A stretch of DNA of 64,000 bases from Azolla caroliniana (Eukaryota; Plantae; Polypodiophyta), in assembly GCA_043228905.1 (NCBI GenBank), contig JBHGNT010000009.1, positions 5,518,001-5,582,000 on the forward strand, in the 5' to 3' direction. Numbering within the stretch: the first letter of the stretch is position 1; each line of letters starts with the position of its first letter. This document shows, in pieces, positions 3,928 to 64,000 of the stretch. The notes beneath the pieces are model-generated. The model saw only the letters and a program-made list of their open reading frames with translations. It was not told the DNA's origin and did no database searches. A program made the translations under genes and the position numbers.

Positions 3928-4567
3928 TGTCGCATAATTACACGTGCGTGGGTGAAATAAGGCGGGACCGCGGGGGCCCTGAACCGAGGAGCAAGAGAGA
4001 CAAAAGGAAGTGAGGAGTGTGACAGTGCGAGGGCTGCTAGACCTATCAGCAGCCGGCGACGCTTACCGACTGATTGGACCACCAACGCTTATACCGATTC
4101 AACGAAAGAGCACACTCGAGAGAGATGAAAGAAGACACTCCTGGAAACACAAATAATGCAGATGACACAAATAACACAGAAACAAGAGATTCAATTACAA
4201 CGATTGTGGTAATTACAACGATGGCAACCCTGCAGAGAATGATGGTAGAGGAAGAGAGAGCTCAGTTCCCAGTCTGACAACACCTCCTTCTTTTCCCAAA
4301 ACGTGATCCCTTTCTTCCTCTTCTCTTCTCTCTTTTATAAGTCGCCGAGGAGGCCGTTACATCAAAACACGTCAACTTAATTCTCTGTCCTTTCAGACAG
4401 AGATACGCATCGATTTCCTAATTAATAAATGTGTCCTACCTAGTATCTTTACGTCAGCCGTCCTATTCCTAGTTATATACAATGAATCAATTCACACACA
4501 CTCGCGAACGGGCGGGTTCACGCCTTTAATTCCTTGATTCCTCTTAGGGCTGGTTTTCTTCACAACA
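3928..4567 (-). repeat. 3' LTR of P1 (640 bp)
   Basis: Direct repeat of 9858-10496; adjacent to the PPT. Confidence 0.92.
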
Positions 4568-4641
4568 TCCACCCCCACCAAACTGCGCATCCACCGGTAT
4601 GTGCCAAACACGAGCAATTGCCGGAGAAGACCGGTCTGTAA

Positions 4642-7600
4642 TCATCCGTCACTTCCCGAATCCTCGTCTGCTTCGAACCGGTCGTCGTCGTCAGTCACGC
4701 ATCCCGGATCCGGCTCGTCCTCATGCCGATTTTTGGACGCCTTGACCCATTTCCCGGCTATCGGCATTGTTAATCGCGTCCCCTCGAGCTCCGCAAGATG
4801 ATACGTCTCGTTGTCATTCACCTCGTTACGACGTAGGGCCTGAACCACTTCCTCGTGAATTTGCGCGTAGCCTTGTGCTGGTTGTCGAGGTTGCGGTCAT
4901 GCACCAACACCCAATCGCCTTCCTCGATCTTCTTTGGCCACAGCCGGTGTGTCCAGTCGAACCGGCCTTTGTTCCTTTCCCTCATTGTTTGCAGCTTCGT
5001 CTTTGCCCTCTCCACGTCCTCTAGTCTTCGCTCGAGCTGTCGAATCGGCGCCACCAAAAGCTCTTCCCGGCTCATCTCGTTCCTCCAATCTATCACCGCC
5101 CACGAGGAAATCGTTCGGTCCACCAGCATGATAGGCTTCTGCCCGTACATCAGCTCCGCTAGCATGAACCCGGTTACCGAACTATGCGTCGTCCGGTCTG
5201 CCCATAGTGCGTAGGGTAGGAGCCGCGGCCAATTCCCGACCTGGCCTCCGCAGGCTCGTACCAACGCCTTTACGATTGGCCCATGTCCGCGCTCCACCTT
5301 CCTGTTTGCCTCCACTTGAAATGGACAGTCGGCGGGTAGGTCGAGTGTGGACTGCAATTGATAGCTTTCGCACGTCGTCACGAACTGGTACACATCCCAA
5401 TATAGCCCCGGCCACCAATACTTCTCTTTCAGTTTCTCGAACGTGGCCCATGTCCCGTAGTGTCCGGCCTAAGGACTCTCGTGGTACGCCGTTAACAACC
5501 TGTCCTGCTCGTCGTTTCTCGCCACTACACGGAGCGGAACACTGCCTCGCTTCTTTGGGGGCTTCCATATACTTCCGTCCCGTAGGAAGAATCAGTACGC
5601 TTTCTTCCGGATCCGGTTAGCCTCCTCTCTGGTCCATGCCACGTCCGACGTCATTGTCCTTAGGAACCTTCCAATCTGGAGCCACTCCCCGTCGTACTCG
5701 CTCTCGCTGAACTCGTTAAGCGACGGAGTGCTCCCTGCCCTTGTCGCTACACGAGCCGACTCGAAGAATTCTACGCCGACTTCTTCGTCCTTCGAAACCA
5801 TGTCGTTCTCGTCGTCAAACCGCGCTCTAGAAAGCATTTTGGCCATTGTGTTGTCCTTTCCGAAGATGTGTCATATCTCCGGATCCAGGGACTTAATGTA
5901 TGCGATCCACCTAAGCATCGCCAGGTCCGGAGTTGCGCATCCGGAAACTATACCAAGGATTGGCAGGCAGTCTGTCTCAATGATTACTTCTGTCCCTATT
6001 AGGTATTCTTTATCGGTCTTGACTGCCGAAACGATACCACATAATTTGCGCTTAACTTGGGTGTATCCTCGTTGTCGCTCACTGAGAACCTTTGCCCCAA
6101 ACCGGATGGGGAACCGCGTGCCGCCAATAAGCGCCTCCTTCAGTCTCCGGATCGACTCCGTATGCTCCTCGCCCCATTCGAATTTATGCCCCTTTTTCAG
6201 CAGCCCATAGAGTGGTTCCGCGACGTGTGCGTAGTGCGGAATCCAGATGTGATAGAACACACACGCCCCCAAGAACCTTCGGACCTCCGTTATAGACCTG
6301 TATTCATCCTTCATTGCGGAGATGGCCTCCACCTTCGCCGAAGATGGTTTCCGGCCGTAAGGGCCGCACAAGTGCCCGAATACCAGGATCTCTGACTGCC
6401 CGAAAGCTAACTTCTCTTCAGAGAAGGTGAGCCACGCGTTCTCAAGCCTCTGTAGCACCTTCTCGCAATCTTCAATATGGTCCCCAACAAACCTTCGGTA
6501 ACCGTCTGGCTCAACCGAATCATCCTTATCTTCCACTGAACATCCCTTTATCGGTATGTCGTCCAAAAACGGCATGGTGATGTCTGGGATGTAGTCCCTT
6601 AGCACCTTGTTCATAGCGTTCACCATGTGGGCCACCGAGTTGGTCCCTCCCTGCAGCAAGGTGCACATCCGCACCAGGCCGAGAGGAGTCTGCATCGTCG
6701 TAATATCCCTCCTCTCCACGGTTAGTTGGAACTGGTCGTACCCTGAGTATAGATCCCCGACCAAATAGATCGACCTTCCGGCGAAGGCCTCCGCGAACTC
6801 CTCAATGGTTAGTCCGATCCCTACGTTCCAAATGGTCACCTTGTTGACAGGTTGCAGGTCCTGAATAAAGCGCAACGTACCGTTCTTCTTAGGCACAGTG
6901 AACCACCGATTCGAGTATGGGGCACTCGACAGTTTGAGGATGCCCATCTCCACCTTCTGCTTCAGCAGCTCCATCAGCTTCGGGATGTGAGCTCTGGGTA
7001 CTGGAATTGGTTTGAGATTCCACGGCACATGCGGTACCGTAAAGATAACCATCGGCTCCACAATCTTCATGTTCACACACCCGATATCTTCCGGTGAGAA
7101 TGCAAAGGCTTTCCTATGCCTCCTGAGCATTCCCCGAAACCGTTCCTCCTCCGCCGGTAGTAGAAAGCCACCCCCACCAACCTTGAGCTCCTGTAGCGTT
7201 ATGTCGGTGAACCAGTGTCCTATGCCGGCCAGATGCCATAAACTTGGGTCCCACGCGACCCCTTTTATTCGTTCCTCGCTGCCCTCCGACAAGGGTGCCG
7301 CAACTGGCCTCACCTTCCGGTCCACAGTCTTGTACCTTGTATCCACGCAGGCCGTCCGATCCGACCTAACCCTTCCCCCGAAGTCGGCGATGACTTTGTA
7401 CATTCCCACCGAGTTAACCCGAATCATCCGGTCTCCACTGAGGCCTTCCTCGATCACCTTCCCGATTTCCCCGAGGGTGTCGTCGAAAGAGATCGCCTCC
7501 ACGGCGCCACTAGTTTCCTCATCGGGGTCGAGGACTCCGCATGTCTTGAGCTGTTCCTCTACCGGCTTCTTCTCCCGGCCAACGATGCCGGCTATCGTAC

Positions 7601-9840
7601 AACATCCGCTATCGGAGAACCAAAACTTCCTACCTATGGTACAGGTGTGGGGTTCCCCGGGGGTGCCCGAACTATCGCGGCCCCACGCCTTGATAGCCCT
7701 CTCAAAAAATCCCCTCGGCTATCGCCGCCGTGGGTTTCGCGGTTCCGCTCATGGTTCGGTCGCACGTTCAAGAATTGGACGGAGTGTCGTCCATCTTGGC
7801 TCTTTACGCGCGCGTACCCTGAACCGTTATCTAGCACCCTTGTCTCCATACGTGCCGCTGTAATGTACGGCTCGCCGAGTATCACCAGGTGCGACGATGT
7901 CTATTGCACAAAGAAGTGTTGATCTATCTTGATGTCGCCGACCTTTACGCGTACATTCGGGCACGCACCATGCAGCTCCTCCGTAGCGCACGTCGCCGCG
8001 CGAATCTTCCACCTGTGTTTGGTGTTGATTGGCCATTTCCCTTTCCTGTAGAAGTCCATGGACATCATGTTTATGTCCGAACCATTGTCTATCAATGCAA
8101 CCACCAGGTCCTGCACGTCCCCAATCCGGACAGGGGTTTCCGTGGTGGCCCTGGCCCAATGTAAACTCGAGTAGTGGCTATCCGTCAACTTGTCTTCTAG
8201 GGCCGCATCCTCCAAGTGCGTCGTCTGCACCTCCACCGGCTTCTCCGGTTCCGGCTATGTAGAGAGCCACTTGCGCTTTACTAAATCTACGATGGAATCG
8301 TGGAATTCCTTCTTCGCGATCCCAAGCACTTCCCGCAATGATAACTTGACCTTGTTGTCGAGGATCCGTTCTTCTAGAACCTTCCACAGGTCCGTCCTCC
8401 TTTCAATCACAATGCTTAGCTGGTAACTGGCCCGCTTCGTTTTGTCCGGTGCGCCGGGGTTACCGGCATTGTCCAGGTCTTGTACCGCTGTGAGGGCTTG
8501 GCACCTCCAGCCTTTCCCGCACGCTTGTCTTCTACCAGAACCTCGTAGTTCCGGCACGCGGCTTCCATGAGACCGGTCTTCTCCTCAATCGGATCGCCCC
8601 ATCTGGTGACCTCCCGGACCCGCCGTCCTGCGCAACTCACTTCCTCCTTCTTCAGTTGTGCACCGGAGAGGCCTTCTAGCACCGAGGGCCAGAAGTCAGC
8701 GTCCTTCGTTTTCCGATCTTCGTCACCTCCCACCCGGATCCTGACCGATGCTGAATAATGGACGGCCTCCACATGGCGCACCTCCACTTCTTCCATTAGC
8801 CGCTGCATCCCGCCACGCCCGAAATTCGTCTCCACCTCTCTCCGAGTATCACCAGCATGCACCCATCCGTTCCATAAGTACACCACATTACCCCTAAGGG
8901 CTTCGGCAAACTCCACTCAATCTCGCCGGCTGTGTCCGACCGTGTCGCACCACATACACCGTTGTCCAGTCGGTCGCCTTCGGTCGCGTGGCTACCCTCC
9001 ACTATCTCTCCGGGCCTGCGCGATCTTCAGGTCGCGCACCATTTGTGTCAGCTCCTCAAGAGACGCTCTCCTGGATTAGCCCTTGACTGCTCCGGTCGAC
9101 GCTGGGCCAGTTTCACTCCAACCCCAGGTTTCCTCCCTTCGTGTCGGCAAAGGCTCATCGAACTTCCTTGCCGGGGTGGGTCCCATCGCCGATGACTTCT
9201 CGTCGCCCCACTCTCGCCGTTTGTCGAAGCGGCCGTAGACCCCTTTGACCATGGTCCAGTCAGTCGTCAGCCCATCATTTGTCTCCAGCAGGAGACCCAC
9301 CTGGCCCCTATCCCGCACGTCCACCGATTTGACAAACAACAGGGCACAGCTCGTGTCTAGCACGGTACTGTCTAGCATCGAGAGCCGTGTGAAGCGCTCC
9401 TTGAACTCCCGGAGGAGCGTCGACGCATTCCTCCCCTTTCCGAGGGTTTCCACCCACTCCATGAAGTCCCGCTTCGATAACCGAAGCGCGTCATCAAGCC
9501 CGTACCTTTCGAGGAGCCGTGCTTTGAATTCTCCCCAGGTCCAACATCCAACCTGTACCTCGAGCACCTCTGCGTGGATGCGCGGTGTCGCCACCTGAGG
9601 GAACCCGGCCGGACACCTATCCTCCGGGATGTCTCTCATTACGATCTCGGCTCAGTAAGCCACCAAATAGCTCGTGGCATCCTTCCCACCGAATCGGCCT
9701 ATCGTGCCGACAATTGCTTCAATGGCCCTGTCGAGGGTGCCAGTGCCCTCGCAAGCACTTACTATTCGATCGACCGTTGCTACCATGGCTTCGGTGAGCT
9801 CCGATCCCCTCATCTTCACTCCTCTATCGCCTTGTTTCAC
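4642..9840 (-). pseudogene. P1 gag-pol, frameshifted and internally deleted
   Basis: gag fragments 9652-9840, 9076-9639, 8416-8916; protease ALIDNGSDIN (7901-8236); RT 5871-7502 (DLYSGYDQF, FLDD); integrase remnants 4818-5393. Confidence 0.88.
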
Positions 9841-9853
9841 ATCGGGTTCACCA
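9836..9853 (-). other. Primer binding site complementary to the tRNA-Trp 3' end
   Basis: TGGTGAACCCGATGTGAA on the - strand, 4 nt from the LTR. 17/18 match to the plant tRNA-Trp 3' end (TTCACGTCGGGTTCACCA) as recalled. Confidence 0.85.
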
Positions 9854-9857
9854 AATA

Positions 9858-10496
9858 TGTCACGTAATTATGCGTGCGTGGGTGAAATAAGGTGGAACCG
9901 CAGGGACCCTGAACCGAGGAGCAAGACAAAAGGAAGTGAGGAGCGCGACAGCGCGAGGGCTGCTAGACCTATCAGCAACCAACGACGCTTACTGGCTGAT
10001 TGGACCACCAACGCGTATACCAATTCAATCAAAGAGCACACTCGAGAGAGATGAAAGAAGATACTCCCGGAAACACAAATAACGCAGATGACACAAAATA
10101 ACACAGAAGCAAGAGATTCAATTACAACGACCGTGGTAATTACAATGATGGAAACCTTGCAGAGAATGATGGTAGAGGAAGAGAGAGCTCGGTTCCCAGT
10201 CCGACAACACCTCCTTTTCCCAAAACGTGATCCCTTTCTTTCTCTTCTCTTCTCTTCTCTCTTTTATAAGTCGCTGAGGAGGCTGTTACATCAAAACACG
10301 TCAACTTAATTCTCTATCCTTTTGGATAGAGATATACGCATCGATTTCCTAATTAATAAATGTGTCCTACCTAGTATCTTTACATCAGTCGTCCTATTCC
10401 TAGTTATATACAATGAATCAATTCACACAGTCGTGAAAGGGCGGGTTCATGCCTTTAATTCCTTGATTCCTCTTAGGGCCAGTTTTCTTCACGACA
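9858..10496 (-). repeat. 5' LTR of P1 (639 bp)
   Basis: Direct repeat of 3928-4567; adjacent to the PBS. Confidence 0.92.
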
Positions 10497-33064: not shown

Positions 33065-35121
33065 GGTTACAAACAAAAACCAGTGATATTATGATTAAAG
33101 AAAGAGAAGAAAGATATACATACATATTAACTTCTTCTTCTTCTAAGACCAAATTTGGTCCATGAGACAAATTTGATCATAGTACGTAAAATTCGTGTTC
33201 GTCTAGTATAACATTCGTTTTCCTAAGTTGGAAAACGAATGCGAATGTTATCCAAACATTCTTGTTTTTTTTCCCATTTTTTAAATATATTTTTTTACAT
33301 TTTTAGGCTTATCTACCTCATAATAAAAATAGTTAATCCAAAAGTATGGTATTTATCATTCTTTGAGGATGTTTTTCTTTCGCGAATGATTGAACCATTC
33401 ACGAATGTGAATGCACGTATGGTGTGTATGGTTCATACTATGAATTTGATTATCATTACACTAATGGGGTGTGGATATGTGCATTGTGTACCCCAATTGC
33501 CCAAAAATAAAAAATAAACAAGTCAATATAAATAGATGAATTTTGAGCATGATACAAAAGATGTTATGCAGTGTAGCATGTTTTTGTAAAGGAAATGGCT
33601 ATGTGCTGAGACTAATTTCATTTTCTATCCAAGTCTCTCGAAAAGAAGGGGGGGATTGAATGGTTTTGATGCGATTGTGGGCTGTGAGAAATAGATAGAT
33701 AGATAGATTCTATTATTGTCTTCGGAGTGGGGGGGGGGGGGGGGGGGGAGGGTGTCTTAGCATGTAATTTAGTGAGTATTTTGTAACATGAAAGGTAAGG
33801 ACTTCATTGCATATGGTTGACATATAGTCACCATGTTGTAAGAGTGATTGTGTGAGATTGCTCTCATGGAGGGAGGCATCCTTCTCTACACAACTCCATT
33901 GTACCCATGTGTTATGAGGGAGAGAGATTTGTGCAAGCTTGACAAACGTTGCATGCCCATATAAGTATGTATATTGGCCATCCTAGAGAGTGTGCACAAA
34001 TATGGATGGTTTAACATTTGATAATGTGCTTATTCTGACATGGTTGATAAGGTTTTTTTATTTGTCTATGAGTGTGCTACTATTAAGTACATACTTGTCA
34101 TACGCTTCCAACAACCATCGGTTTCACATTGGTGCATGAGAGATAAGTCTACATACAATGAAAGAGAAAAAGATACATTAACCTTGAATATAGTACCCTT
34201 TGTGGCCATCCTAGAGTAACATGGCCCTGTTAGTCTATTAGGTAATTTCGTTTGATTTTTAGTTATGTTCTTTATGTGACAAGTGCGTTGAAAGAATCTT
34301 ATTCTCACATATCTATCCGTGACACTTACACGCATTTCACACACATCTACCCCTCAAATTCCATCACAAACTTTTGAGGGGGGTTACAAGGAATATGAGG
34401 AAATTAGTATCAAATTGTGGACCACGTACTTTGATTTGTATAGGTTTGTATACTTTGATTTATATTTGTTTATTTGTTAGCACAAGAGCACATCAACACA
34501 TTCGTGTTAATGTGTGCGTGTGAAATGTTTTATGTGTGCAAAGGGGTAATGTAGCTATGTGTGTCTAGTTTCAAAACATGAAGTTCTCTCCCTCCCTTAG
34601 GTTGTTGATAGAGTTCCTTTTTTGGGTGGAGGGTGGGGGTAGGAACAACAATTTGAGTAGATGTGAAGCACATGCCTAGTGTTAAGCCTAGGCTTGTCGA
34701 TCAACTATTTGAGCTACAACAACAATTGTTGTTGCATCGATGGGGAGTGGCCTTGTTGGCTCCTCCTCCTCCTCCTCCTTCCTTTAGTGCTCCTCAATAA
34801 ACAACAATTTGTTGCTCATTGACTTTAGGAGCCTTTCCTTGAGTGCAAGCATTATTCTTGGGTTTAAGGTTTAGGTGGAGGATTAACTCTAGAGTTGATC
34901 CTAGAACTGATTTGGGTTTGTCTTGAGTATGAAAAGGAGAGCTAAGGATTATTTACATGTCCCTATGTTTGATTAAGGAACTTAAGGACAATTTAGGGGT
35001 CCTTAGGGCCAATGAAGGAACCATAGGGATGATTTGGGTTTCCTAGTTTCAAATTTGGGGACTCTGGGATGATTCAGAGGTTAGAATCCCTTTTCCAAGC
35101 CAAAATTCTTTTCTAACCCTT

Positions 35122-35184
35122 GTGGGAGTGGCTCGGTGTTAGAGCATCAATCACTTGGAAGTGTGGGTTTGAATCCTACCTCCT
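35122..35184 (+). pseudogene. tRNA-derived sequence (SINE head or tRNA pseudogene)
   Basis: A-box-like TGGCTCGGTGTT, T-arm GTGGG-TTTGAAT-CCTAC with a 5-bp stem, and GGAG/CTCC acceptor pairing. The anticodon arm is shortened. Confidence 0.55.
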
Positions 35185-35759
35185 AGAGAATCATCATTTG
35201 GCATTCTTGAACCTTGTCACAGGTTTCGCTCTTGAGCATTTCAATGCGGCTTCTCATTACTTAGAATAATAACAATGTATGTGGACCTATTATCTATGGT
35301 AGCTTCTAAAGTTCGCATCTAGGTAGTTAGTTGACCTTAGTGAATATCAATACAAATAGATTTCAAGAGTGGGAATAGCCAAACTTAAATAAAATAGTAT
35401 CCAAGGATATTCCAATGACTCACCCACAATAGTCACCAATGGAACCCACCCTACAAGCCCATCTGATTAATGTTGAGAGCAATCACATTCAAGAAGTAAA
35501 TGTAGCTCTCTTGCAACAATTATTAAACTTAAGAATAATGATAAAACTCAAGGAAATGTGAAGGACAACATGTTCCATAGAACTCAAATGACAAGGGGTA
35601 CATCACATTTTATCAAGACCCATTGAAATGTCAAGGATTACATCACATTTTACCAAAACCAATTGAAATCTCTTTCCTAAAGCACTAAGGTTAGACCATA
35701 AAACTTGGTATGACATACAAATGTTATCTCCTTAATTTCTCTCTCTCTCTCTCTCGTCA

Positions 35760-36365
35760 TAATTAGCTTATCCTAGTGGTAAGTCAAGCACTACATCTTG
35801 GGTTCGATACCCAAATTTCTCACCTCTATTATATACTTCATACATGTCTCTCAATTCACTAGATGCCATTGTGTAATGTAGGAGTTGAACCCATGACCAC
35901 CTTGTCACCATTGGGAAACCTTACCAATTTTCTCTCTCTCTCTTTTATTGTAATTAGATTTTACCCTAGTGGTAAGTTGTTACACTACAAGCACTATGTC
36001 CAAGGTTCGAAACCCAATTTTCTCACCTCTCTATTACATACTTTATATATCTTAATTCAATATTATGGCCTCAAGGGCGGCTCCGATGGAGTTGAAAGAC
36101 AACGAATAGCCTTCATCCAACAATGGTCGTCCTCTCCCTTTCTTGAGTCAGTGGGCATCCACATAAGATGGAACTATCGCGTCCCTACAGGGATTTGTAC
36201 ATAATCATCTCATTTGTAAAATTTTATAACTAATGGAAGGAGTTTTTTTTTGGAAAAATAAAATAAAATCTTAATTCACTAGATGCCATTGTGGAATGTA
36301 GGGGCCCATGACTTCCCGGTCTCCATTGGGCAACCTTACGAACTGAGCTACATCCATCTGGGCTC
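35760..36365. mobile_element. Duplicated pair of convergent tRNA-derived (SINE-like) cassettes
   Basis: + strand CCTAGTGGTAAG...GGTTCGA(T/A)ACCC at ~35770-35812 and ~35964-36015. - strand TAGCTCAGTTCGTAAGG / GGTCATGGGTTCAACTCC at ~36272-36365 and ~35856-35928. Confidence 0.55.
36060..36267 (+). mobile_element. 5'-truncated LINE 3' end with an 11-bp TSD
   Basis: A-rich tail; TSD ATCTTAATTCA at 36049-36059 and 36268-36278. Same family as 27592-27860. Confidence 0.8.
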
Positions 36366-37514: not shown

Positions 37515-38414
37515 TGTCATGCCTTTTGGCTCCGGATCGTTGCGTGAGTCGGGTGGGAACTGCTGGGGTTTTGGACTAGGAAGAGGAAGAATTTGAGACG
37601 AGTTTGGTTATGAATAGATAGAAAGATAGGTAAGTTATGAATCTCGTGAATCCCACGAGTTTAGTGTATTTAATCAATATTTAGATAGTAAGAGACAATT
37701 TTGATCACAAATTTGTGAATCCCACGAATATATTATATTAATTGGTGTTTTAGGAAATATATCCAATTTCCAAATATTCCACCCCCCCCCCCATTACATT
37801 GTGCTCCTCATCCTTATATAGTGATGAGAGAGTCTTCCCAATACATGCTTTTTCTCTAACTATAGACTATATGCTTTATCTAACATGCTTTTTCTAACTT
37901 TAGTTTTCACGCACACTGCATGTGCATGATTAGCTTTCTATCCCATCTTTTCTTTTAACTCGAGTGTGTATGCATGAATAACTTTTTGTACCATGCATAT
38001 CTAGAATATTTGCATGGGATAAAGTTTAGTATAACTTTACAATTCACAATATGCTAGTATAGTAGTAAGGCTTAAAATTTGTTAACATGGAGGTATAGGG
38101 TTCGAATCTTGCCCTATGCATATAATATATATTCGTATACTTTCCTCTATTTACAAATATGTCTCTTTATCCGGTTCTCACCGGGTCTGCTTCATCCGGT
38201 TCTCACCGGTTTTCTTTATCTGGTTCTTACCGAGTCCTCCTTACCGGTCCTCTTCGTCCGTTACTCACCGACTCTCACCGGCCTTCTTCATCCGGCTCTT
38301 GCCTTCATCTGGTTCTAATCGGTCCTCCTTACCGGTTCTTCCTTGCCGATTTCTCCTTCATCCGTAGGAACGAAAATGCAATTTTTCACGTAGTATATGA
38401 AATACACTACGACA
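37515..38414 (-). mobile_element. Single Phygy-like LTR (900 bp) without a matching TSD, probably recombinant
   Basis: TGTCATGCC...CTACGACA; homologous to the LTRs at 42811, 45587 and 59120. Flanks CTGG and ACGG differ. Contains a CCGGTTCT-type mini-satellite at 38170-38365. Confidence 0.88.
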
Positions 38415-42125: not shown

Positions 42126-43425
42126 ACATGAGCTAGAATAGGAGCTGATGTAAATGCCTTCTTAAGACTCTCAAAAGCCATGTAATACTATGCTTCTTTA
42201 GACCAAACGAACAATTGTCCCTTCATAGTAAGCCGTGTGAGAGGCAGAACAAGCTTTGAGTAATCCTGTATAAACTTTCGGTAGAAATTAGCAAAGCCTA
42301 AAAAGCATTGCACATCTCGCAACAAACGCGGAGTTTGCCACTCTACCACCGTTTTGACCTTAGCTAGATCCATGGAGATGACTTTCGAGGAAATGACATA
42401 GCCTAGAAATTCTACCTGGTTGCCCCCGAAACTACATTTTTCTAGCTTTGCATAAAGACCATGTTCTCGAAGTCATTTTAGTGCTAACAGTACATGTGAA
42501 TCATGGTCTTCTTGGGTCTTCGAATAAACCAATAGACCATCCAAATAGATGATCAAACAAACATCCAAGAGATCTCAGAATATATCATTTGCCATGTGTT
42601 GGAAGACTGTTGGCGCATTAGTGAGGCCGAATGGCATGACCGTATACTCGAAGTGCCCATATCTGGTGCAAAACGTGGTCTTCCATTCATCTCTTGGTCG
42701 GATCCGTACAAGGTTATATGCTCCTCATAAGTCGATCTTTGTGAAGAACCTTGCGCCATTGACCCGCTCTAAAAGACTTGAGATAAGGGGAAGTGCACAC
42801 CTATTCCCGATGTTGTGCCTTTCGGCTCCGGATCGTTGCGTGAGTCGGGTGGGAACCACTGGGGTTTTGGACTAGGAGAAAGAAGAATATGAGATGAGGC
42901 TAGTAATGAATAGATTATTAGAAAGAGAGATAGAAATTTCGTGAATCCCACGAGTGTATTTTATTCGATTAATCAATATTTAGATAAGAATATGTATTTA
43001 GATTGAAAGAAAGATATAAGAAACTTGTGAATCCCACAAGTATAGATTATATTATTTTCGTGAATCCCACGATTATATTAATCGGTTGGTGTTTTCGGAA
43101 ATATATCCAATTTCCAAATATTTCACACGCCTATTACATTGTGCTCCCCATCCTTATGTAGTGATGGGAGAGACTAAGCATAGCTACATGCTTTTTTTCT
43201 AATATGTTCATGCACACTAAATGTGCATGTGATGCTTTTCTAATCCTTGCTTTTATTTGCTAAATATAGTGCTCATGCACGCTAGATGTGCATGAGTCAC
43301 TTTTTAGTTGCTTGCGTTTTTCTATAAAATATTCACGCACTCTAAAAATGCATGGTTTACCTTTTAATAAAGGTAGGCGCAAATAAAGCACTTATAGTTA
43401 TTAAATCTATTTATAAAACACTAAA

Positions 43426-43497
43426 GATAAGGTAGCATAATGGTAAAGTTGAGGTTTGGCTACGTGGAGGTACAGGGTTCGAATCCTGCTCTATGCA
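43426..43497 (+). promoter_or_regulatory. tRNA-like Pol III A-box/B-box cassette within the P2 LTR (also at ~46202-46273)
   Basis: TAGCATAATGGTAAAG at 43433 and GGTTCGAATCC at 43476-43486, with tRNA-gene spacing. Confidence 0.65.
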
Positions 43498-43550
43498 TGT
43501 GATAAATATCTTGATATATTATTTTATTTATTTATATGTAATTAAATCGG

Positions 43551-45548
43551 TTATATTATTTTTACTTTTTCACGTAGTGTACGAAATACACTACGACACT
43601 CGCCCCCTCCGAACCCGCACATCCTCCGGTATGTGCCGAAGTTGCCGATGCTCGTTGTCTCCCCTTCATCCTCCGTTTGTCCCGCTATGTCAACTTTGTC
43701 TCTCCATTTTGAGTAGACCCATTCTTTCCACCCGAACCATTGTTGCCATCCGATCCACCATATTCTTTGTTCTCTCTCGTCATATTCTTGGCCCTTGTCA
43801 TTCGTGGTAGTGTCTTTTACTGGCCTCTTTGTTGTCTTCATCAACCTTGACTTTTTTCCAGATCGCTCTCGTCCGATCGACTTTCGGTTTGATCGGCTTC
43901 CGATCGGATTCGTATTCGGCCGAATCGGAATCGGTTGTTCGGTTTCGATTGAGTCGGTCCCCTTCCGGCCCGGTTTCGATCTATCGGTTTTGGTTTCGGT
44001 TGGCTTTCTTTTCCTCGTTTTCACCAGCCTTGACCGGTCCAACCTCCGATTGAGTCGGATTAGCTTCTGTCCGATCGGCTTTCGGCTAGGTCGGCTTCCA
44101 TCCATATTCGCGTTCAGCCAAGTCAGACTCAGCCGATCGGTTTTGACCAAGTCGACCCCTTTTCGGGTCGGCTTTCTTTCGGGTCGTCTTTCGGCCGAAT
44201 CCTCATTCGCCCGATTCAGCTTTCGTTTGTGTCGTCTTTTGGCCGAATTCTCTTCCTTTCGGTTCGGCTTTCTTTCGGATCGGAATCCCGTCCGGATCAC
44301 CTTCCATCCTAACTGGCTTCCGACTTTACCTTTCTTGCCGCCACCTCCCGTCTCTCCGGTCTCACGTTGCTTCTTAGACACAACCGCCGAAGTCTCTAGG
44401 ATTAGTGGACAGGAATCCTCGGTATTATCATCTTCCATTGTTTCACCCATAGCCATATTCTCGGCTATCTCTCCGTCGTATGCATCGACTTCGACCTTTG
44501 TTTTCTCTCCGCCACCTTCCGTCTCTTCGGTCTCACGTTGCCTTTCGAACGCAACCGCCGGAGTCTCTAGAATCAGTGGTGGGGAAGTCTCGATATGGCC
44601 ATCCGTCGTTGATTCGTCCATAGCCACCTTCGATTCGATGTCATCTTTTGTGGCGACCTCCTCAATCAAGTCCTCTTTGCTCTCTTTCACTGCATCAATT
44701 ATGCTTACCCCTTTTTCACCCGATGTTTCGGACACTTGTATTCTGAAATCTTCTTCTATACTTGGGTTATCGGCCTTATCCTTCGTCGTTGTTCTTTCGC
44801 AAGACAAGAGGGTAGCTTGCTTTACACCCTCTTCCGTCGCACCATCATGTTGTATTTCGGCCTTCATATCGGCTCCATCGTTTGTCTTCAATCGACCATC
44901 CTTCATCGGCCATGTCGTTGACAAGATTCTCATCTTCCTCTCATCATGTCTCCGGCATACCCTTTGGACTTCGGCCCAATTTTCGGTAAGACCATTCGTA
45001 CCGTCATCGTCTTCGAGTTCGATCCCGATGTCCATCCTTTCTTTTCGATCGATCGATTTTACGAACATTAGGACTTTATCCTCTCCCACCAACCGTTGTT
45101 CTCGCTCCGAGAGTCGAGCAAAACGATTCTCGAACTCTAGGAATGCTTGTGTTGCACTTCGGTGGGTCTTCTCCGATGCCACCCATTCGTCGAATTTTCG
45201 CCGATCTTGTCCCTTTGATCTCTTGTAATCATATGCCTCTCGTAAAGCTTCTTCGAATGACCCCCATGTCGAGTTTTGTTGCCGTATCTTGTGGATTCTC
45301 TCTTGTAGCTCATCCGTGGCCACCCGATTGAAGGATGTCACTTGCAATCCTTCCGGTATCCCACATCGTATCATCTCCGCCTTGTAGTCACGTAGATAGC
45401 GTGACACATCATTTCCGTTGAATTGTCCGTTTCGTTGTACGAGCCGCTTTACTGCCCCCGTGATCTCCGACATCACTCGTTGTTCTTGTAGCATCCGCTC
45501 GAACATCATCATCATCGTTATGCTCATTGCCTCTTGTTGATTCTCCAT
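43551..45548 (-). CDS. gag: Intact ~665-aa Gag-derived protein (Gag N-terminal half plus acidic, basic and Trp-rich extension)
   Basis: ATG (MENQQEAM) 17 nt after the PBS. The N-terminus closely matches P3 gag (FNGxDVSRYLRDYKAEMxRCGIxEGLQVTSFN). The frame stays open through the PPT into the 3' LTR. Confidence 0.8.
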   Translation of the reverse strand: MENQQEAMSITMMMMFERMLQEQRVMSEITGAVKRLVQRNGQFNGNDVSRYLRDYKAEMIRCGIPEGLQVTSFNRVATDELQERIHKIRQQNSTWGSFEEALREAYDYKRSKGQDRRKFDEWVASEKTHRSATQAFLEFENRFARLSEREQRLVGEDKVLMFVKSIDRKERMDIGIELEDDDGTNGLTENWAEVQRVCRRHDERKMRILSTTWPMKDGRLKTNDGADMKAEIQHDGATEEGVKQATLLSCERTTTKDKADNPSIEEDFRIQVSETSGEKGVSIIDAVKESKEDLIEEVATKDDIESKVAMDESTTDGHIETSPPLILETPAVAFERQRETEETEGGGEKTKVEVDAYDGEIAENMAMGETMEDDNTEDSCPLILETSAVVSKKQRETGETGGGGKKGKVGSQLGWKVIRTGFRSERKPNRKEENSAKRRHKRKLNRANEDSAERRPERKPTRKGVDLVKTDRLSLTWLNANMDGSRPSRKPIGQKLIRLNRRLDRSRLVKTRKRKPTETKTDRSKPGRKGTDSIETEQPIPIRPNTNPIGSRSNRKSIGRERSGKKSRLMKTTKRPVKDTTTNDKGQEYDEREQRIWWIGWQQWFGWKEWVYSKWRDKVDIAGQTEDEGETTSIGNFGTYRRMCGFGGGECRSVFRTLREKVKII

Positions 45549-45564
45549 CTCCTTGCCACCCGCC

Positions 45565-45582
45565 TTCACGTCGGGTTCACCA
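45565..45582 (-). other. tRNA-Trp primer binding site of P2
   Basis: TGGTGAACCCGACGTGAA, 4 nt from the LTR end. Confidence 0.88.
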
Positions 45583-48565
45583 ACTGTGTTGTGCCTTTCG
45601 GCTCCGGATCGTTGTGTGAGTCGGGTGGGAACCACTGGGGTTTTGGACTAGGAGAAAGAAGAATATGAGATGAGGCTAGTAATGAATAGATTATTAGAAA
45701 GAGAGATAGAAATTTCGTGAATCCCACGAGTGTATTTTATTCGATTAATCAATATTTAGATAAGAATATGTATTTAGATTGAAAGAAAGATATAAGAAAC
45801 TTGTGAATCCCACAAGTATAGATTATATTATTTTCGTGAATCCCACGATTATATTAATCAGTTGGTGTTTTCGGAAATATATCCAATTTCCAAATATTTC
45901 ACACGCCTATTACATTGTGCTCCCCATCCTTATGTAGTGATGGGAGAGACTAAGCATAGCTACATGCTTTTTTTCTAATATGTTCATGCACACTAAATGT
46001 GCATGTGATGCTTTTCTAATCCTTGCTTTTATTTGCTAAATATAGTGCTCATGCACGCTAGATGTGCATGAGTCACTTTTTAGTTGCTTGCGTTTTTCTA
46101 TAAAATATTCACGCACTCTAAAAATGCATGGTTTACCTTTTAATAAAGGTAGGCGCAAATAAAGCACTTATAGTTATTAAATCTATTTATAGAACACTAA
46201 AGATAAGGTAGCATAATGGTAAAGTTGAGGTTTGGCTACGTGGAGGTACAGGGTTCGAATCTTGCCCTATGCACGTGATAAATATCTTGATATATTATTT
46301 TATTTATTTATATGTAATTAAATCGGTTATAGTATTTTTACTTTTTCACGTAGTGTACGAAATACACTACGACACCGATGATGACCCTATTCAAGCCACG
46401 ATAATCTACAACGAGACGAAGTGATCCATCTTTTTTCTTGACGAAGAAAATCGGTGCGCCGGTTGGAGATTTCGAATGTCGAATGAAACCATTTGCCAAA
46501 TTCTCCTCTATATAGGCTTGAAGGACTTCTAGCTCGGTTGGTGACAAATTGTAGATCGGTCCCCATGGTGGCTCTTTTCCAGGTTGTAAATCGATGGGGA
46601 AATCATACGGTCGATGGTGAGGAAGCGTATTGGCTTGTACTTTATCGAACACATCGGCATAATGACGATACTTCTCTAGAAGTTGAACGGTGGACTCCTC
46701 TTTAGTGGTGTTGGAGGATTTTACTGATACTGCGAAGAGAAACATTTCTTCCTTGTGTCCTTCCTCACGCAACTGATGTAGCGAAATGGTTGCAATCTTA
46801 TGAGTAGATCCTCGAGTTTGTTGATACCGGATTTCTCTTGTTCTCCAATCTATGTCTGGGTTATGTAATTCGAACCATGGTAATCCCAAAACAATGGGAT
46901 GTTTTGGGATATTAATTATATTAAATGATACTACACACGCAAAATTATCTAGGACAATATTAACGGGCTCTGACTCTTCTATGATATTTCCAAAAGCAAT
47001 GGAACGACCATAAATGACTACTATAGAGACTGGACACGGGAGTTTTCTTAGGGAAATCTGATGAGCTTGGGCAAAATTCCTATCCATGGAGCAAGAATTA
47101 GCTATGGAATCTAGGAGTGCTGAGACATGTACTGGAGAGGTACTTTTAGTACTAATTGTACTTGGGGTAAGAACACATTGCTAAATTGCTTAGAGGGAAT
47201 GGAACCACTAATGGGTTGCATAGATCTAGGGCTGTCCAACCAAACGGTTCCTATTTTGGCTGGACTTAGTCGTTTAACTCTTCTTCTAACTGACTAAGGA
47301 CATCAAATTTATTTGATAGATTTGGGCTATTGGTACTATTAGGACTATCAGATATTCCTACTGAAATAGACTCGGGTTTAGTACAATTAGAACTAGCAAC
47401 TATTTGGTTTACCTATCTTCTTGGCCTATGGGGATAGTTCATTGCAATATGTCATGGTCCACCGCAATAAAGACATAGTCAATTTGCTCGGCGTCACTAC
47501 TTTTCTTCTTCTGATAATGGTCCGCGACGACGTGTAGTGTCAATTTCCATTGGAGTTGGAGTATTCACTAGAGACGCATTATATGACTCCCTTGGAAAAG
47601 GTTTTGCTACCATTGAGGCGTAAGTGGGCTCTGATCTTGCCCTTGGCATCTAGAATTGACATTCCGAACGTCAATCGAAAAGACGGTTGTTGCATCTCAT
47701 CGCACAACTGATTGCTTCTATCAATGACTTTGGTTCTTTGGGGAAGGTCAAGAGTAAATCCTTGACATCGTTTCGTAGACCATAACGAAATTGCTCCATT
47801 AGTGCTTGGTCATCCCAGGGGATATCGGAGGTGAGTAGGCGGAAATCTGAAGCGTATGCGGAGGCTAGACGATCACCTTGACGTAATCGTCGGATTTTGT
47901 TGATTGTTGTCCTTATGATGTCAGTGTCTCCAAAACAAGCTTTAAACTCACTTAAAAACTCTTCAAAATTGTTTAGTAAAGAAGATTCCTTTTGTAACAA
48001 CGGAGCGAACCATGCCAAAGTTGAGGCACTTAACAACGTGCCTATTAAACTCACTCGTGATGCATCGGTGGGATATCGGGAAGGATGCATTTGAATGACT
48101 AATCATACCTGATTAAGGAATCCTCTAAACTACGATCGCGTTCCATCGAATTTCATGGGAAGGCCGATCTTGGGTTCTTTATGAATCCCTTGCATATTGG
48201 GTCCTTGTTGTTGCATCGTTTTTATGGTTGCTTCGAGTTGTTGCCCACGTAATGCTAGTCCCCCTAATTGTTGTTGTGTCTTCTACTTTTCTAAGGAGAT
48301 TTGTTGAAGATCCCCCAACAACCGTTGATTTTCTTGCTCCAAAGTAAGGAACTTCTCTTTCAAGCATTGTAGCTCTGAGAAAACGGATTGATATTCTTGA
48401 GCGCTAACAGTGACCATAGGATGAGAGGAAAAAGGAATAAGATATTAGTATGAAGGGAGGGAAACGTAAGAAGATAAAAGGAATAGGATGAAAGAGGTGA
48501 AAAATCGGTCCAAACTATCAGGAATAGTACCGAGATAGAGAGGAAATTAGTACTAAGAGGAAAAG

Positions 48566-58250: not shown

Positions 58251-58258
58251 TCATGACA

Positions 58259-59119: not shown

Positions 59120-62100
59120 TGTCATAGTGTAATTTGCACACTATATGAAATATGTAAAAAATATATCCGATTTAAGTACGCATAAATAAATAAAAGAAAA
59201 TCTTTAAAATGTTGTTACATGCATAGGCCAAGATTCAAACCTTGTACCTCCATGTAAACAAACCCAAACTTTACCATTGTACTAGCTTATCATAAGTGAT
59301 CTAAATATAGATTTAATACATATAAGAGTTATATTTATGCCTATTTTTACAAAAAAAAGTAAATCATGCACTTTTAGAGTGCTTGAAAACTTTATTTGGA
59401 AGAAAAACGCAAGCCAATTACTCATGCCCATCTAGCGTGCATGAGCGTTATATTTAGGAAATAAAAAAGCATGGTTCAAAAAGGCAACTCATGCACATCT
59501 AGAGTGCATGAACACTTTAGGAAAAAGCATGATGCTATGATTAGCCTCTTCCATCACTATATAAGGAAGAGAGAAAGATGTATATGGTTGTTGATTTTTT
59601 AAAGGGTTGATTAATATAAAATATTAGTAGGATTCACAATTTTGCCATCTATTTCTCTCTTACAATCTAAGTACCAATTAATACACTATACTCGCGGAAT
59701 TCACGAGTTTTATATCTTCATCTTGCAATCTATTCGTAACAAACATTATCTCATATTCTTCTTTCTCCTAGTCCAAAACCCCAGCGATTCCCACCCGACT
59801 CACGCAACGATCCGACACCGAAAGGCCCGACACAAGCGGTGAACCCGACGTGAAGACGGGTGGCAAGGAGATGGAGAATCAACAACTGGAAACTAACAAC
59901 ATGATGACGATGTTCGAGCGCATGCTACAAGAACAACGCCCAATATCAGAGATTGCGGCGGCAGTAGAGTGGCTCGTGCAACGGAGCGGGCAATTCAACG
60001 GGAAGGATGTGTCGCGATATTTGCGGGATTACAAGGCGGAAATGCTACGTTGCGGAATATCAGAAGGATTGCAGGTGACATCCTTCAATTGGGTGGCTAC
60101 GGACGGGCTTCAAGGGAGTATCTACGGGATACGACAACAAAATCCGATGTGGGAAACATTTGAAGAAGCGATGAAGACCACGTTCGCCATTGAGGACTCC
60201 TCCAAGGCAACACGGAGGGGATTTGAAGATTGGGTGGAAACCCCAGACAAGGGGCTGAAGGTCCTCGATGTGTTTTCGGCATTCAAAAGTCGGTTCGGGA
60301 GGTTGTCCGAGAGAGATCAAGCTGTCCTCGCACCGGACAAAGTGATCATGTCCTTACAAACCGTGGATGTCCGGGACCAGAAAGATCTTGGAATGCTTCT
60401 AAAGGACACCACTACTGAGAATGGCCTCACCAATACATGGGAAAACGTGCAAGATATCGTCCCGCGATACACAAAGAGGAGGCAATGGCTTGGTAGTGAA
60501 GAAAAGAGGGTTTTGGAACCAATTCCGAAACCAAGATCCAGATTGGAAGACCATGAACCGTGGGCTCGGGAGACTACGACCGAGAAGGGAATCAATGCAA
60601 CCATGGTGGAGCAATTGGTGAAGGAGATGGAGAATTTGAAAATTGCGATGGTGAAGAAGTTGGATGACCTTCCCACAAGCTCCAAGTATATGGACCGTCG
60701 ATGCATATGGTGTGACAACACCGAACATGATCAGAGGGATTGCTACGAGCACAAGGAGGCACTACGACGGGACCTTATCTATTACGAGGGAAATCGGATT
60801 CATTCGATGGACTCTCGGAAGCCACTCCGACCGAACTTCCAAAAAGGCGGCATGAAGAAGGTCCTAGAGGAGGAAATAGCGTCGGAAAGCAATTATGCGA
60901 CAACCGCGGGGATATGTGTGGGTGAGTCATTTGGAGCAAAGGCATCTTTTTGGCCGGAAGTGCTAGAAAACCCTAAGAAAACTGACTCTAATGAGATTTG
61001 AAGCACCACGGAAGGCATCCGAGAAGCTACGGGATGGGAGTGCCCCATCGATAAGAATAGCGTGTATGCCCTATGCCAATTACATGAGGTGTATGTAGAT
61101 GAGAAATGACGGTGCACGGATGATGTGGCCGGGCCATCAAAGACGCTGAAGAGTTAGAACTCCGAAGGGAAGGGGAAAGGAAAAACAATTCCGGCATTCA
61201 AACTCGCTTCGAACATCGAGGAACAAACGGACTTAATAAAGGTGTTCGAGGAGAGAATCCTTGATAGCCGAGTAGATTTTTCTCTTTGAGAATTACTCGA
61301 AATAGTGAAGAAGTAGTTCCACGCTCTTCTTGTGGATCTCATGAAGAGAAAAAGACAAAATACGGAGGAAAATGCTCCAAGGGTGAATGCAAATACCGTT
61401 CTAGTGATTGACACCGAAGTGGAGGATGAAATTCCGAACTCCCACTACACAAGGCCACACTGGGCACACGCAACTACGGAAACTCTGGTCCGAATCGAAA
61501 ATATCAAGGAGCTTGTACTAGCATTGATTGATCACGAATCAGAGATCAATTTGATGTCCAAGGAGTTCTACTAAAAGGGGAAGTGGCCTATTAACAATAA
61601 TCATGGATGGAAGATCCGGGCAGCCACTAAAACAACAGAAGATTTATTTGCGGCTTGTCCGGATGTGACGGTGAAGGTTGAAGATGTGGAGATTGATCAA
61701 AATTTCTTCGTGCAAGATGAGGTCTCACACTCTGTGATCCTCGGGCAACCCTTTATCACGGCTTCATGGATGGAGACAAAGGTGCTCAATAGCGGAGCGG
61801 CTTTTGCACGAATTCGAAGCCAAAGCGGAGGGAAAACTGTCCAATTCCTAACTGTGCCATCAAATCACGAAAGGAACAAGAGAGAGCTCTTGTCCCAAAC
61901 AAAAATGGATTTTTAAAGCAGACAGTTGAAGAGTGGGGAAGTGATAGTCCGAGAAGCCCTGATACCCCACACAGGAAGAAACCTCTCGGAGCAAAACAAG
62001 TACGAATTGGTCCGGATGGGGCATCTACGTACACGACCGTAACCGAAGTAATGAAGAAAGAAATCCGAAAGGTGCAAGATGAGTTACGGTCTGCATCAAT

Positions 62101-64000
62101 AATAAAAGAGGACGAAGAAATTGTGGGAGTAGTTGAAGAAGTGTTCTATGGGAGCACGCTACAACGGCTTGAAGATCTTGCAAAAGAGAATAACCAGGGA
62201 GACCGGGTAGTTCCGGTGGAATCAGTCGAGATGTATGAGATCATTGCGAAAATGGGGCCGGATGTGCTCCGCAGAGAAGAAGCAATGGTATGTACGAAAT
62301 ATAAGACTGTGGAAAAGAAGGTGAAACCGGTCGCGAGACCGCTGCCCGCCGATAGTGAACAAAAGAGGAAAGGAGTCTCGGGAGATCCGAAACTTCGAAA
62401 GTCCGTGGATATCGGACATGCCTTCACAGATGAGACCCAGAAGAAACTTCGGATCGGTGGAGGTGGTTTCCTCTCACAAAATGAAGAAGAACGGTTTCGT
62501 GAGATGTTGGAGCAGCATGGAAGAGCATTTGCATTCACATCGAAAGAGATAGGGTGTGTTGACCCGAAGATAATGGAGCTGATGGTGATCTTCACGATTG
62601 ATCATGTGTCATGCAACCTGAAGCCGATTCCGGTGCCACGGCTGCATATTCCGAAAATCATTGACTTGCTCAAGGAGAAGGTGGCGATGGGGATTCTAGA
62701 GCCATCCAATGCTTCGTACTCAAATTGATGGTTTACGGTTCCGAAGAAGAATGGGTCACTCTGATTTATTCAAGATTTGCAACCGGTGAACAAGGTCACA
62801 ATCTGAAACTCTGGAGTCGGTTCGATAGTGGACGAATTTGCGGAAGCGCTTGCAGGTCGCACGATATACTCCATCGGAGACCTATACTCCGGGTATGACC
62901 AATTCCAACTAACCGTGGAGAGCCGAGACATCACTACCATGCGAACACCGATAGGATTAGTCCGGATGTGCACGCTACCACAAGGCGCGACAAACTCGGT
63001 TGCACCCTACGGCCGAAGACCATCGCCAGTCAAGATCGATGCGATTGAAGCTATGAAAGAAATATGTGAGTAACAATCTGAAGTCTGAAGATTTCTTGGG
63101 GCATGTGCATTCTATCACATATGGATTCTGCACTATGCACACATTGCGGACCCACTCTATCACTTGTTGCGGAAGGGGAAGAATTTCGAATGGAAACCGG
63201 AACATACCAAAGCCGTGAAGAAGCTCAAGAAATCACTACAGAGGGCAGAAGCAATTAAGAAGCCGAACTATGACTGACCGATTATAGTAACGGTTGATAC
63301 AAGTCCAACTGGGATCGGATGGGTCATCAATCAAGCCGATTCAGATGGTTCACGATATCTGATCTGATTCGGAGCAATGGTTCTCAACGAAAGGAAACGC
63401 GGATATGCAAAAGTTAAAAGAGAATTATGGGCAGTCGTGTCGGCGATAAAATCAGATTGAGATTACTTGATTGGAGCCGAAGTAGTGATCGAAATGGGTT
63501 GTCTTCCGATACTCGGGATGATGCGGTGTTGTAGGATACCAGATGTGGCTATGCTAAGATGGATTGCATATGTAAAGTTGCTTAATCTGGAGATACGACA
63601 CATCTCTGGAAAAGACAACGCAGTAGTAGATATGCTATCAAGGGCACGGTTTGGAGACGACATAGCCGAATCTGATAATGAAAGTGTTTCTGAAAACTAC
63701 TTTACTTCAGAGCACATATGTTGGGTGAATGTAATCCGAGAATTCCGGGAAGACGAATACGAGGGAGAAAGTTTGTTGATCGGGAAAGTGCTACAAGAAA
63801 TCGAGGAATCATTGGACAATAAAGAAAAGAGATCCGAGATCCGAGATCCGAAGTAAGAAGCGGCAAATACAACAGTTTTCTTGAACAATGGATTAATCTG
63901 GAGGGAGCCGAAAAGACCGAATGGTATACCACTACGAGTAATCGGAACAAAAGAGCAACAAAACCGGATAATGTCCGAATTTCACGAATCCGATTGGGCT
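59120..64000 (+). mobile_element. Phygy-like Ty3/gypsy element P3 (5' LTR, PBS-Trp, gag, PR, RT, RH, start of INT); continues past the window
   Basis: 5' LTR 59120-59832 is homologous to the P2 LTR (reverse complement). PBS (C)GGTGAACCCGACGTGAA 59837-59854. gag from 59871; pol collinear with P1, with many TGA/TAA stops. Confidence 0.92.
59871..64000 (+). pseudogene. P3 gag-pol pseudogene
   Basis: ORF pieces 59850-61001 (C-x2-C-x4-H-x4-C knuckle CIWCDNTEHDQRDC), 61332-61916, 62051-62728, 62828-63073 and 63467-63856. Confidence 0.9.

What the first reader, a model, noticed from the sequence alone, without database searches (positions are those of the whole stretch)
43426..43497. tRNA-gene mimics (Pol III A+B boxes) conserved antisense in the U3 of Phygy-like LTRs
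Seen: each copy of this LTR family has an A-box and a B-box at tRNA spacing (T8 to G53 of 44-45 nt), on the strand opposite to the element transcript. Copies: TAGCATAATGGTAAAG/GGTTCGAATCC (43433/43476; again at ~46209/46252), TAGTATAGTAGTAAG/GGTTCGAATC (38055/38099) and, on the - strand in P3, TAGTACAATGGTAAAG/GGTTTGAATC (59284/59242). The three subfamily LTRs differ in length (900, 788, 713 bp) and are clearly diverged, yet box motifs and spacing persist while cloverleaf pairing does not. Established: A/B boxes bind TFIIIC; tDNAs and B-boxes act as chromatin barriers in yeasts and animals; Cassandra TRIMs carry 5S-type Pol III promoters in their LTRs. Inference: these elements carry a built-in tDNA-type promoter that may shield the Pol II promoter from heterochromatin spreading, produce an antisense small RNA, or mark nested-insertion sites. 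I do not know of a description of this for these lineages.
Basis: partly seen in the sequence, partly recalled or inferred. Interest (0 to 1): 0.8.

Follow-up and report, generated by a model that had tools for sequence, protein, structure and literature searches.

The report
tRNA promoter boxes inside fern LTRs
Several families of fern jumping genes carry a back-to-front relic of a tRNA gene's promoter just upstream of their own promoter, which likely serves as a docking site for the tRNA transcription factor TFIIIC rather than making a tRNA, although most related families lack it and binding is untested.

Summary
Four LTR copies carry a tRNA-type A-box/B-box pair (T8-G53 44-45 nt), antisense in U3. 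Five window sites score at least 15/16, against 0-1 in each of 8 controls. The elements meet the Phygy marks (tRNA-Trp PBS, NCGN target site), and the host is a fern.

The module also sits antisense in U3 in four other LTR groups. Between some families it is the only shared internal segment. But 25 of 31 complete related LTRs lack it, as does a Phygy-type element in this window. There is no cloverleaf and no conserved terminator. Boxes beat the flanking U3 only weakly (window trio p=0.04, not significant within three other groups), and the B-box C56T change is common (18-26% of depth).

Best reading: a captured tRNA/SINE-head cassette, likely kept as a TFIIIC site beside an RY-rich Pol II promoter (0.45). 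Passive hitch-hiking remains serious (0.3).

Prior art: Helenus TRIMs carry tRNA boxes in LTRs, but sense and in tiny elements. This scan noted similar boxes in two other, reportedly fungal, genomes.

The parts
43426..43498 (+). tRNA-like module in LTR A: A box from T8 43433 (G18-G19 at 43442-43443), B box G53-C61 43477-43485; 16/16 box positions
46202..46274 (+). tRNA-like module in LTR B (T8 46209, G53 46253); 16/16
38048..38121 (+). tRNA-like module in LTR C (T8 38055, G53 38100; spacing 45); 15/16
59219..59291 (-). tRNA-like module in LTR D (T8 59284, G53 59240); 15/16, B box with C56T
43469..43497 (+). Candidate 8-bp stem (43469-43476 with 43490-43497) enclosing the B box in a 13-nt loop; seen by eye, partial covariation
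42811..43598 (-). 3' LTR (A, 788 bp) of a 3.56-kb element without pol; target site duplication CCGA at 42807-42810
45587..46374 (-). 5' LTR (B, 788 bp), 7 differences from A; CCGA at 46375-46378
45565..45582 (-). Primer binding site TGGTGAACCCGACGTGAA; read as tRNA-Trp type (match to tRNA-Trp recalled, fits the Phygy table)
43599..43620 (-). G-rich polypurine-tract-like stretch before the 3' LTR
43551..45647 (-). Open frame: N-terminal gag part (56% identical to element D gag over about 237 aa) fused to non-gag sequence; no pol
43153..43354 (-). Predicted Pol II core: TATA-like box (43153-43161) and five CATGCA/TGCATG (RY) motifs at 43209-43354 between TATA and module
   Evidence: function inferred
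37515..38414 (-). LTR C (900 bp), no PBS after it; CCGG-rich array between module and LTR 5' end
59120..59832 (+). LTR D (713 bp), 5' LTR of a gag-pol element; flank ACGT (NCGN)
59772..64000 (+). Decayed gag-pol of element D (RT and RNase H Pfam hits, stops read as X), running off the window
3928..10496 (-). Internal control: another Phygy-type gag-pol element (same PBS type, flanks GTGT/GCGT) whose 640-bp LTRs have no box pair scoring 14 or more

Best explanation
This is a tRNA-derived A-box/B-box cassette that sits antisense in U3 of several fern Phygy-type LTR families, and it is likely kept as a DNA docking site for TFIIIC that would help hold the neighbouring RY-rich Pol II promoter open, rather than to make a tRNA. 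Shown: the boxes, their spacing, position and orientation, loss of the cloverleaf, recurrence in five LTR groups, absence from most related LTRs. Inferred: capture from a tRNA gene or SINE head (probably more than once), spread between families by LTR recombination, selection on the boxes. Untested: TFIIIC binding and any effect on chromatin or LTR transcription.
For: (1) Of 11 sites scoring 15 or more of 16 in 213 kb of fetched loci, 9 lie in Phygy-type LTRs (8 antisense in U3), 1 is a real tRNA gene and 1 is unexplained. (2) Five LTR groups carry it antisense in U3: window group, L002/L062, L029/L040/L065, L067/L074, L078. (3) For L002-L065, L002-L040 and L040-window B, a 69-72 nt stretch over the module is the only non-microsatellite internal BLAST match between the LTRs. 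(4) L029/L065 and L074 share a U3 core (72-78% of aligned columns) and have the module at the same place, with 14/16 box positions identical but 6-7/18 in between (p=0.002-0.004). (5) Spacing is 44 in 12 of 14 modules and 45 in 2. (6) Window trio: 12/16 box columns invariant vs 143/289 in U3 flanks, p=0.04. (7) No cloverleaf and no fixed terminator favour a DNA-level role over an RNA product. (8) All 8 module LTRs have 5 or more CATG upstream of TATA against 1 of 19 without (rows not independent). TFIIIC sites act as barriers in yeast (established; seen here only as reference titles in PMC13578239).
Against: 25 of 31 complete related LTRs and a Phygy-type element in this window lack it. The box excess vanishes with L010 (8/16, p=0.22) and is not significant within L029/L040/L065, L002/L062 or L067/L074 (p=0.30-0.39). 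Across three organisms, 4 of 16 box positions vary against 8 of 19 between the boxes (four runs, p=0.24). C56T makes up 18-26% of depth in all four runs, more than a neighbouring CpG (4-10%), and G10T 47% in organism C. L040 carries C56T and L065 C61T; L010 and L062 are degenerate. Point (4) is also what separate captures of different tRNA-derived pieces would give.
Confidence: 0.45

Rival explanations
1. Passive hitch-hiker: heads of tRNA-derived SINEs or tRNA pseudogenes fell into U3, were fixed by LTR copying and moved with U3 blocks by recombination; the boxes do nothing for the element.
For: Absent from 25 of 31 complete LTRs. No clustering on the gag tree (4 changes, 177 of 500 shuffles as low). 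Frequent C56T. Degenerate copies L010 and L062. Within-family tests mostly not significant. Weaker tRNA-like pieces occur outside LTRs in this window (35122 with Rfam tRNA 34.7 bits, 35890, 36005, 58234). One fern is reported with over 7,500 tRNA genes (PMC13578239 passages).
Against: The module is an island of similarity between otherwise unalignable LTRs. Same orientation and region in 5 of 5 groups. Boxes kept and middle replaced at a homologous site. Strong modules outside LTRs are rare, 2 of 11 hits in the loci.
Confidence: 0.3
2. Active Pol III gene: TFIIIC and TFIIIB recruit Pol III, which makes a short antisense RNA with a hairpin round the B box; the RNA or its transcription tunes the LTR, as with Pol III cassettes in foamy virus U3.
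For: 16/16 boxes in the young element A/B, AT-rich upstream DNA and T4 at +97. An 8-bp stem pairs in 80% of cells with double changes at 4 of 8 pairs in 10 modules; 0 of 500 shuffles match it and slid controls reach 34-54%. Precedent PMC3993851 (passages).
Against: First T4 ranges from +67 to +272. The stem was picked by eye on related rows; RNAalifold does not recover it. It is absent in L074 and L078, and mismatches do not favour either strand (7 GU vs 5 AC). Window copies fold no better than shuffles (z -1.05 to 0.29).
Confidence: 0.17
3. Landing pad: the boxes attract Pol III-targeting retroelements, so nested insertions collect just upstream of the module.
For: Known for Ty3 at Pol III start sites (PMC6673722, search listing only). 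An unchecked AI note reports it for LTR boxes in another genome (e1-10420520).
Against: In the aligned module LTRs the DNA between module and TATA is continuous. Six truncated LTRs of module families lose similarity about 60 to over 500 nt away from the module start, at no fixed distance.
Confidence: 0.05

Closest known systems
Helenus / TRIMp3 (Kojima 2024, PMC10886601; parts 1-4 of 6 read, supplement passage seen)
   Same: tRNA-derived sequence in the LTR, A and B boxes conserved, cloverleaf mostly lost, proposed origin by SINE insertion into an LTR, patchy and repeated origins; one plant family (Selaginella).
   Different: Helenus are 311-1,263 bp TRIMs, and in the entries seen in the supplement the boxes read in the sense of the element, so Pol III is thought to transcribe the element. 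Here the boxes are antisense, in 600-1,200 bp LTRs that keep a TATA box, in elements of 3.6 kb and more that encode gag or gag-pol. The paper notes that 'not a few LTRs' in Repbase hold tRNA-like parts but studied only TRIMs.
Cassandra TRIM (review PMC10946416, passages)
   Same: Pol III internal promoter carried in plant LTRs, reported also from ferns.
   Different: 5S-type promoter driving the element's own transcript; non-coding TRIM.
Foamy virus U3 Pol III miRNA cassettes (PMC3993851, passages)
   Same: A/B-box Pol III units in U3 of a Pol II LTR; deletable in culture.
   Different: They have defined terminators and hairpins giving miRNAs, shown by experiment; here the terminator is not conserved and no RNA is shown.
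Phygy lineage of non-chromovirus Ty3/gypsy (Neumann 2019, PMC6317226; passages and one supplement row)
   Same: tRNA-Trp PBS, 4-bp NCGN target site duplication.
   Different: Described from Physcomitrella; these are in a fern. No LTR A/B-box module is mentioned in the passages seen.
tDNA and TFIIIC-site chromatin barriers of yeasts and animals (own knowledge; titles in the reference list of PMC13578239)
   Same: Box pair next to a Pol II promoter, no tRNA product needed.
   Different: Host loci with tested function; not shown in plants or here.

Membership tests
Phygy (non-chromovirus Ty3/gypsy) | 4-bp target site duplication NCGN | tested here: met
   CCGA on both sides of element A/B; ACGT before LTR D; table row
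Phygy (non-chromovirus Ty3/gypsy) | tRNA-Trp-type PBS | tested here: met
   PBS at 45565-45582; its match to tRNA-Trp is recalled, not compared with a tRNA-Trp gene
Phygy (non-chromovirus Ty3/gypsy) | RT/RH/INT phylogeny groups with Phygy references; no chromodomain | not tested
   No reference set fetched; element D runs off the window; only Pfam RT/RNase H hits
Helenus / TRIMp3 | tRNA-derived A and B boxes inside the LTR | tested here: met
Helenus / TRIMp3 | Short non-coding TRIM (under about 1.3 kb) | tested here: not met
   Element A/B is 3,564 bp with a gag part; D encodes gag-pol
Helenus / TRIMp3 | Boxes in the sense of the element so that Pol III can make the genomic RNA | tested here: not met
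   Antisense in U3 in 5 of 5 groups; L067/L074 has one extra sense module downstream of TATA; Helenus sense
tRNA gene | Cloverleaf pairing | tested here: not met
   ARAGORN 0, no Rfam tRNA hit, 7-16 of 21 pairs vs 20 of 21 in real genes
Type 2 Pol III promoter | A box and B box consensus at tRNA spacing | tested here: met
   16,16,15,15 of 16 in the window; spacing 44-45
Type 2 Pol III promoter | Nearby conserved T-run terminator | tested here: inconclusive
   T4 at +97 in A/B but +67 to +272 across 15 modules
Type 2 Pol III promoter | TFIIIC or Pol III occupancy, transcript | not testable with these tools
   No chromatin data; only contigs could be laid
tRNA-derived SINE (inserted) | Body, tail and target site duplication; free copies elsewhere | tested here: inconclusive
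   Shared similarity spans only about 70 nt; no tail seen; no free copy of this module at strong score in 213 kb of loci; no whole genome held

The most novel reading that the evidence does not exclude
Protein-coding fern LTR retrotransposons have repeatedly recruited tRNA-gene promoter boxes, from different tRNA parents, into the same antisense slot of U3 and swap them between families as a portable TFIIIC insulator that shields their RY-driven Pol II promoter from silencing: a transposon-borne chromatin barrier in plants.
Probability: 0.3. Interest if true: 0.78.

Novelty: new variant of a known kind. Interest (0 to 1): 0.5.

Why it matters
Known Pol III promoters in LTRs (Cassandra, Helenus, Ajax) are read as driving a tiny element's own RNA. 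An antisense box pair in a TATA-bearing LTR of a coding element cannot do that, so if it is selected it must act through TFIIIC on chromatin or through an antisense RNA. That would be an anti-silencing device carried by the transposon. It would also give a natural, high-copy test of whether TFIIIC sites act as barriers in plants: sister families with intact, broken and missing boxes sit in the same genomes. If neutral, it is an example of modular LTR exchange and a source of false tRNA-like calls.

Tried and rejected
Whole genome: none held, so no genome-wide copy set. Viral contigs: 0 matches to the LTR-end pattern. Expression: no RNA holder listed; the one run guessed as RNA that was laid (X19) was marked 'probably DNA' and is contigs only, so nothing is concluded on transcription.

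Real tRNA: rejected. My cloverleaf string crossed a gap column and misplaced the D arm, so I recounted per sequence. Moss host, my first guess: rejected, the host exon's best named hits are ferns. My early idea that strong tRNA-like modules are common outside LTRs: not borne out at score 15 or more, only for weaker pieces.

Gag tree: 52 rows, only 5 module and 15 non-module rows labelled, many fragments under half filled; L002, L029, L065, L067, L074 and L078 had no usable gag. It shows scatter but cannot count gains. One 14/16 antisense hit in L026 had no HMM support and was treated as chance. Dropped before counting: 11 loci judged not Phygy-like by their LTR end, loci with under 500 nt upstream, and 26 of 57 without a definable LTR 5' end. 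RNAalifold gave only a weak other structure. Insertion near real tRNA genes as a capture route: seen at L044 and L025 only, not tested for enrichment. PMC6786969 (passages) and PMC13570524 (passages) added nothing on this module.

Full report
Observation. They score 16, 16, 15 and 15 of 16 consensus positions (consensus recalled). Five window sites reach 15, against 0-1 in each of 8 Markov controls. ARAGORN finds no gene and Rfam no tRNA at these sites. Cloverleaf pairing is 9-13 of 21, against 20 of 21 for two real tRNA genes in fetched loci.

The elements. A and B are the 788-bp LTRs (7 differences) of one 3,564-bp element on the minus strand, flanked by CCGA on both sides. It has a PBS at 45565-45582, a G-rich tract before the 3' LTR and a gag part without pol. 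C is a 900-bp LTR with no PBS after it. D opens a decayed gag-pol element. A 4-bp NCGN duplication and a tRNA-Trp PBS define Phygy in Neumann 2019 (PMC6317226, passages and one supplement row); I did not build an RT tree. A host exon at 32666-33061 has ferns as best named hits, 72-75% identity over 93-100% of the query, while the many angiosperm hits score far lower, so the host is a fern. In LTR A the order from the 5' end is: 33-nt terminus, antisense module, RY-rich block (five CATGCA/TGCATG motifs), TATA-like box at 43153-43161, then R/U5. The module cannot drive the element's genomic RNA, since it points outward.

How widespread. Of 57 Phygy-like loci with 500 nt or more upstream, 31 had a definable LTR 5' end. 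Six of the 31 carry the module antisense in U3 (L002, L040, L067, L074; degenerate in L010 and L062) and 25 do not; many of the 25 belong to a few families. Three more modules lie in incomplete LTRs (L029, L065, L078). A Phygy-type gag-pol element at 3928-10496 in this window also lacks it. Of 11 sites scoring 15 or more in 213 kb of loci, 9 are in these LTRs (8 antisense in U3, 1 sense behind the TATA of L074), 1 is a real tRNA gene and 1 is unexplained. The window family itself is abundant in runs of organisms A to D. On a gag tree the 5 module rows that could be placed need 4 changes, no better than shuffles (177 of 500), but many rows are fragments. All 8 module LTRs have 5 or more CATG upstream of TATA, against 1 of 19 without (not independent).

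Is it selected? For. Between L002 and L065, L002 and L040, and L040 and window B, the module (69-72 nt) is the only non-microsatellite internal similarity. L029/L065 and L074 share a U3 core and hold the module at the same place, with 14/16 box positions identical but 6-7/18 between the boxes (p=0.002-0.004). Spacing is 44 in 12 of 14 modules and 45 in 2. In the window trio 12/16 box columns are invariant against 143/289 in U3 flanks (p=0.04). The parents may differ: L029/L040 have CTCTTAA at positions 32-38 (anticodon CTT), while L067/L074 keep a 5/5 stem, one base out of register, round CTTGGTA or CTTCATA. That would mean separate captures into one slot; this is inference, as no host tRNA set was available.

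Against. With L010 the window group gives 8/16 (p=0.22). Within L029/L040/L065, L002/L062 and L067/L074 there is no significant excess (p=0.30-0.39). In four runs, 4 of 16 box positions vary at 4% or more against 8 of 19 between the boxes (p=0.24; p=0.058 counting only consensus-breaking changes). C56T makes up 18-26% of depth in every run, above a neighbouring CpG (4-10%), and G10T 47% in organism C; contig depth is a rough weight. This fits heavy methylation of old copies or amplification of box-broken lineages. So selection is likely but not shown.

What is selected, if anything. The first T4 lies at +97 in A/B but from +67 to +272 across 15 modules, so no RNA of fixed length is implied. 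An 8-bp stem round the B box pairs in 80% of cells in 10 modules, with double changes at 4 of 8 pairs; 0 of 500 shuffles match it and slid controls give 34-54%. It was chosen by eye on related rows, RNAalifold does not recover it, it is missing in L074 and L078, and it favours neither strand. It is a hint only. No nested insertions sit just upstream of the modules, and truncated LTRs break at scattered distances.

Mechanism. Most likely (0.45): a tRNA- or SINE-derived box pair, captured into U3 and moved by LTR recombination, binds TFIIIC and helps keep the adjacent RY/TATA promoter free of silencing that spreads from the LTR end; in C, L029, L040 and L065 a CCGG-rich array lies on that side. 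Capture, binding and barrier action are inferred. Rivals: passive hitch-hiking (0.3), an antisense Pol III RNA (0.17), landing pad (0.05).

Known systems. Helenus TRIMs (PMC10886601, parts 1-4 of 6 read; supplement passage) already show tRNA A/B boxes conserved in LTRs without cloverleaf. They are under 1.3 kb, non-coding and, in the entries seen, sense; two defining features fail here, so this is not a Helenus. Cassandra carries a 5S promoter (PMC10946416, passages). Foamy viruses carry A/B-box miRNA genes in U3 (PMC3993851, passages). Nine full-text searches returned no description of antisense tRNA boxes in Phygy or fern LTRs. The library lacks most subscription papers, and Repbase entries that Kojima mentions but did not analyse may include such cases.

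Verdict. A real, non-random feature and a new variant of Pol III promoter capture by LTR elements: antisense, in coding elements, optional, function untested. Interest 0.5.

Noticed in passing
window 35735-36065 and 35122-35187: Cluster of weaker tRNA-like box pairs outside LTRs: two direct copies about 200 bp apart on +, one convergent copy on - (B box near 35890), and an Rfam tRNA hit of 34.7 bits at 35122. Possibly a SINE- or MITE-like repeat; part is shared in inverted form with 27594-27797.
   Followed up: partly
window 58185-58251 (+): Strong box pair (15/16, spacing 45) outside any LTR that I mapped, between a copia element and element D.
   Followed up: no
L074 LTR position 619 and L067 position 582 (counted from the LTR 5' end): This family has two tandem antisense modules in U3 and a third, sense module (16/16 in L074) downstream of the TATA box; L043 and L032 have weaker sense remnants in the same region.
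   Followed up: partly
L044 1150-1224; L025 upstream region: A real tRNA-Arg(CCG) gene about 210 bp upstream of a Phygy-type LTR, pointing away from it; a tandem array of tRNA-like genes upstream of L025.
   Followed up: no
window 43567-43598 and all four LTR 5' ends: The LTR terminus holds an inverted repeat (GTAGTGTA ... TACACTAC) kept in all window copies.
   Followed up: no
L005, L014, L015, L016, L037, L040, L043, L049, L055, L057, L062: Eleven LTRs are preceded by a polypurine tract and followed by a PBS, as in tandem elements sharing an LTR (or collapsed assembly).
   Followed up: no
window 46338-48560 (-): Element A/B is nested in the gag-pol frame of another decayed Ty3 element of a different lineage.
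   Followed up: no
window 32543-33088 (-): Host exon similar to the N-terminus of DEAD-box RNA helicase 33/48; best named hits are ferns.
   Followed up: partly
window 21684-25643 (+): Host-like open frames of 218 and 1,100 aa, serine-rich, with no Pfam hit.
   Followed up: no
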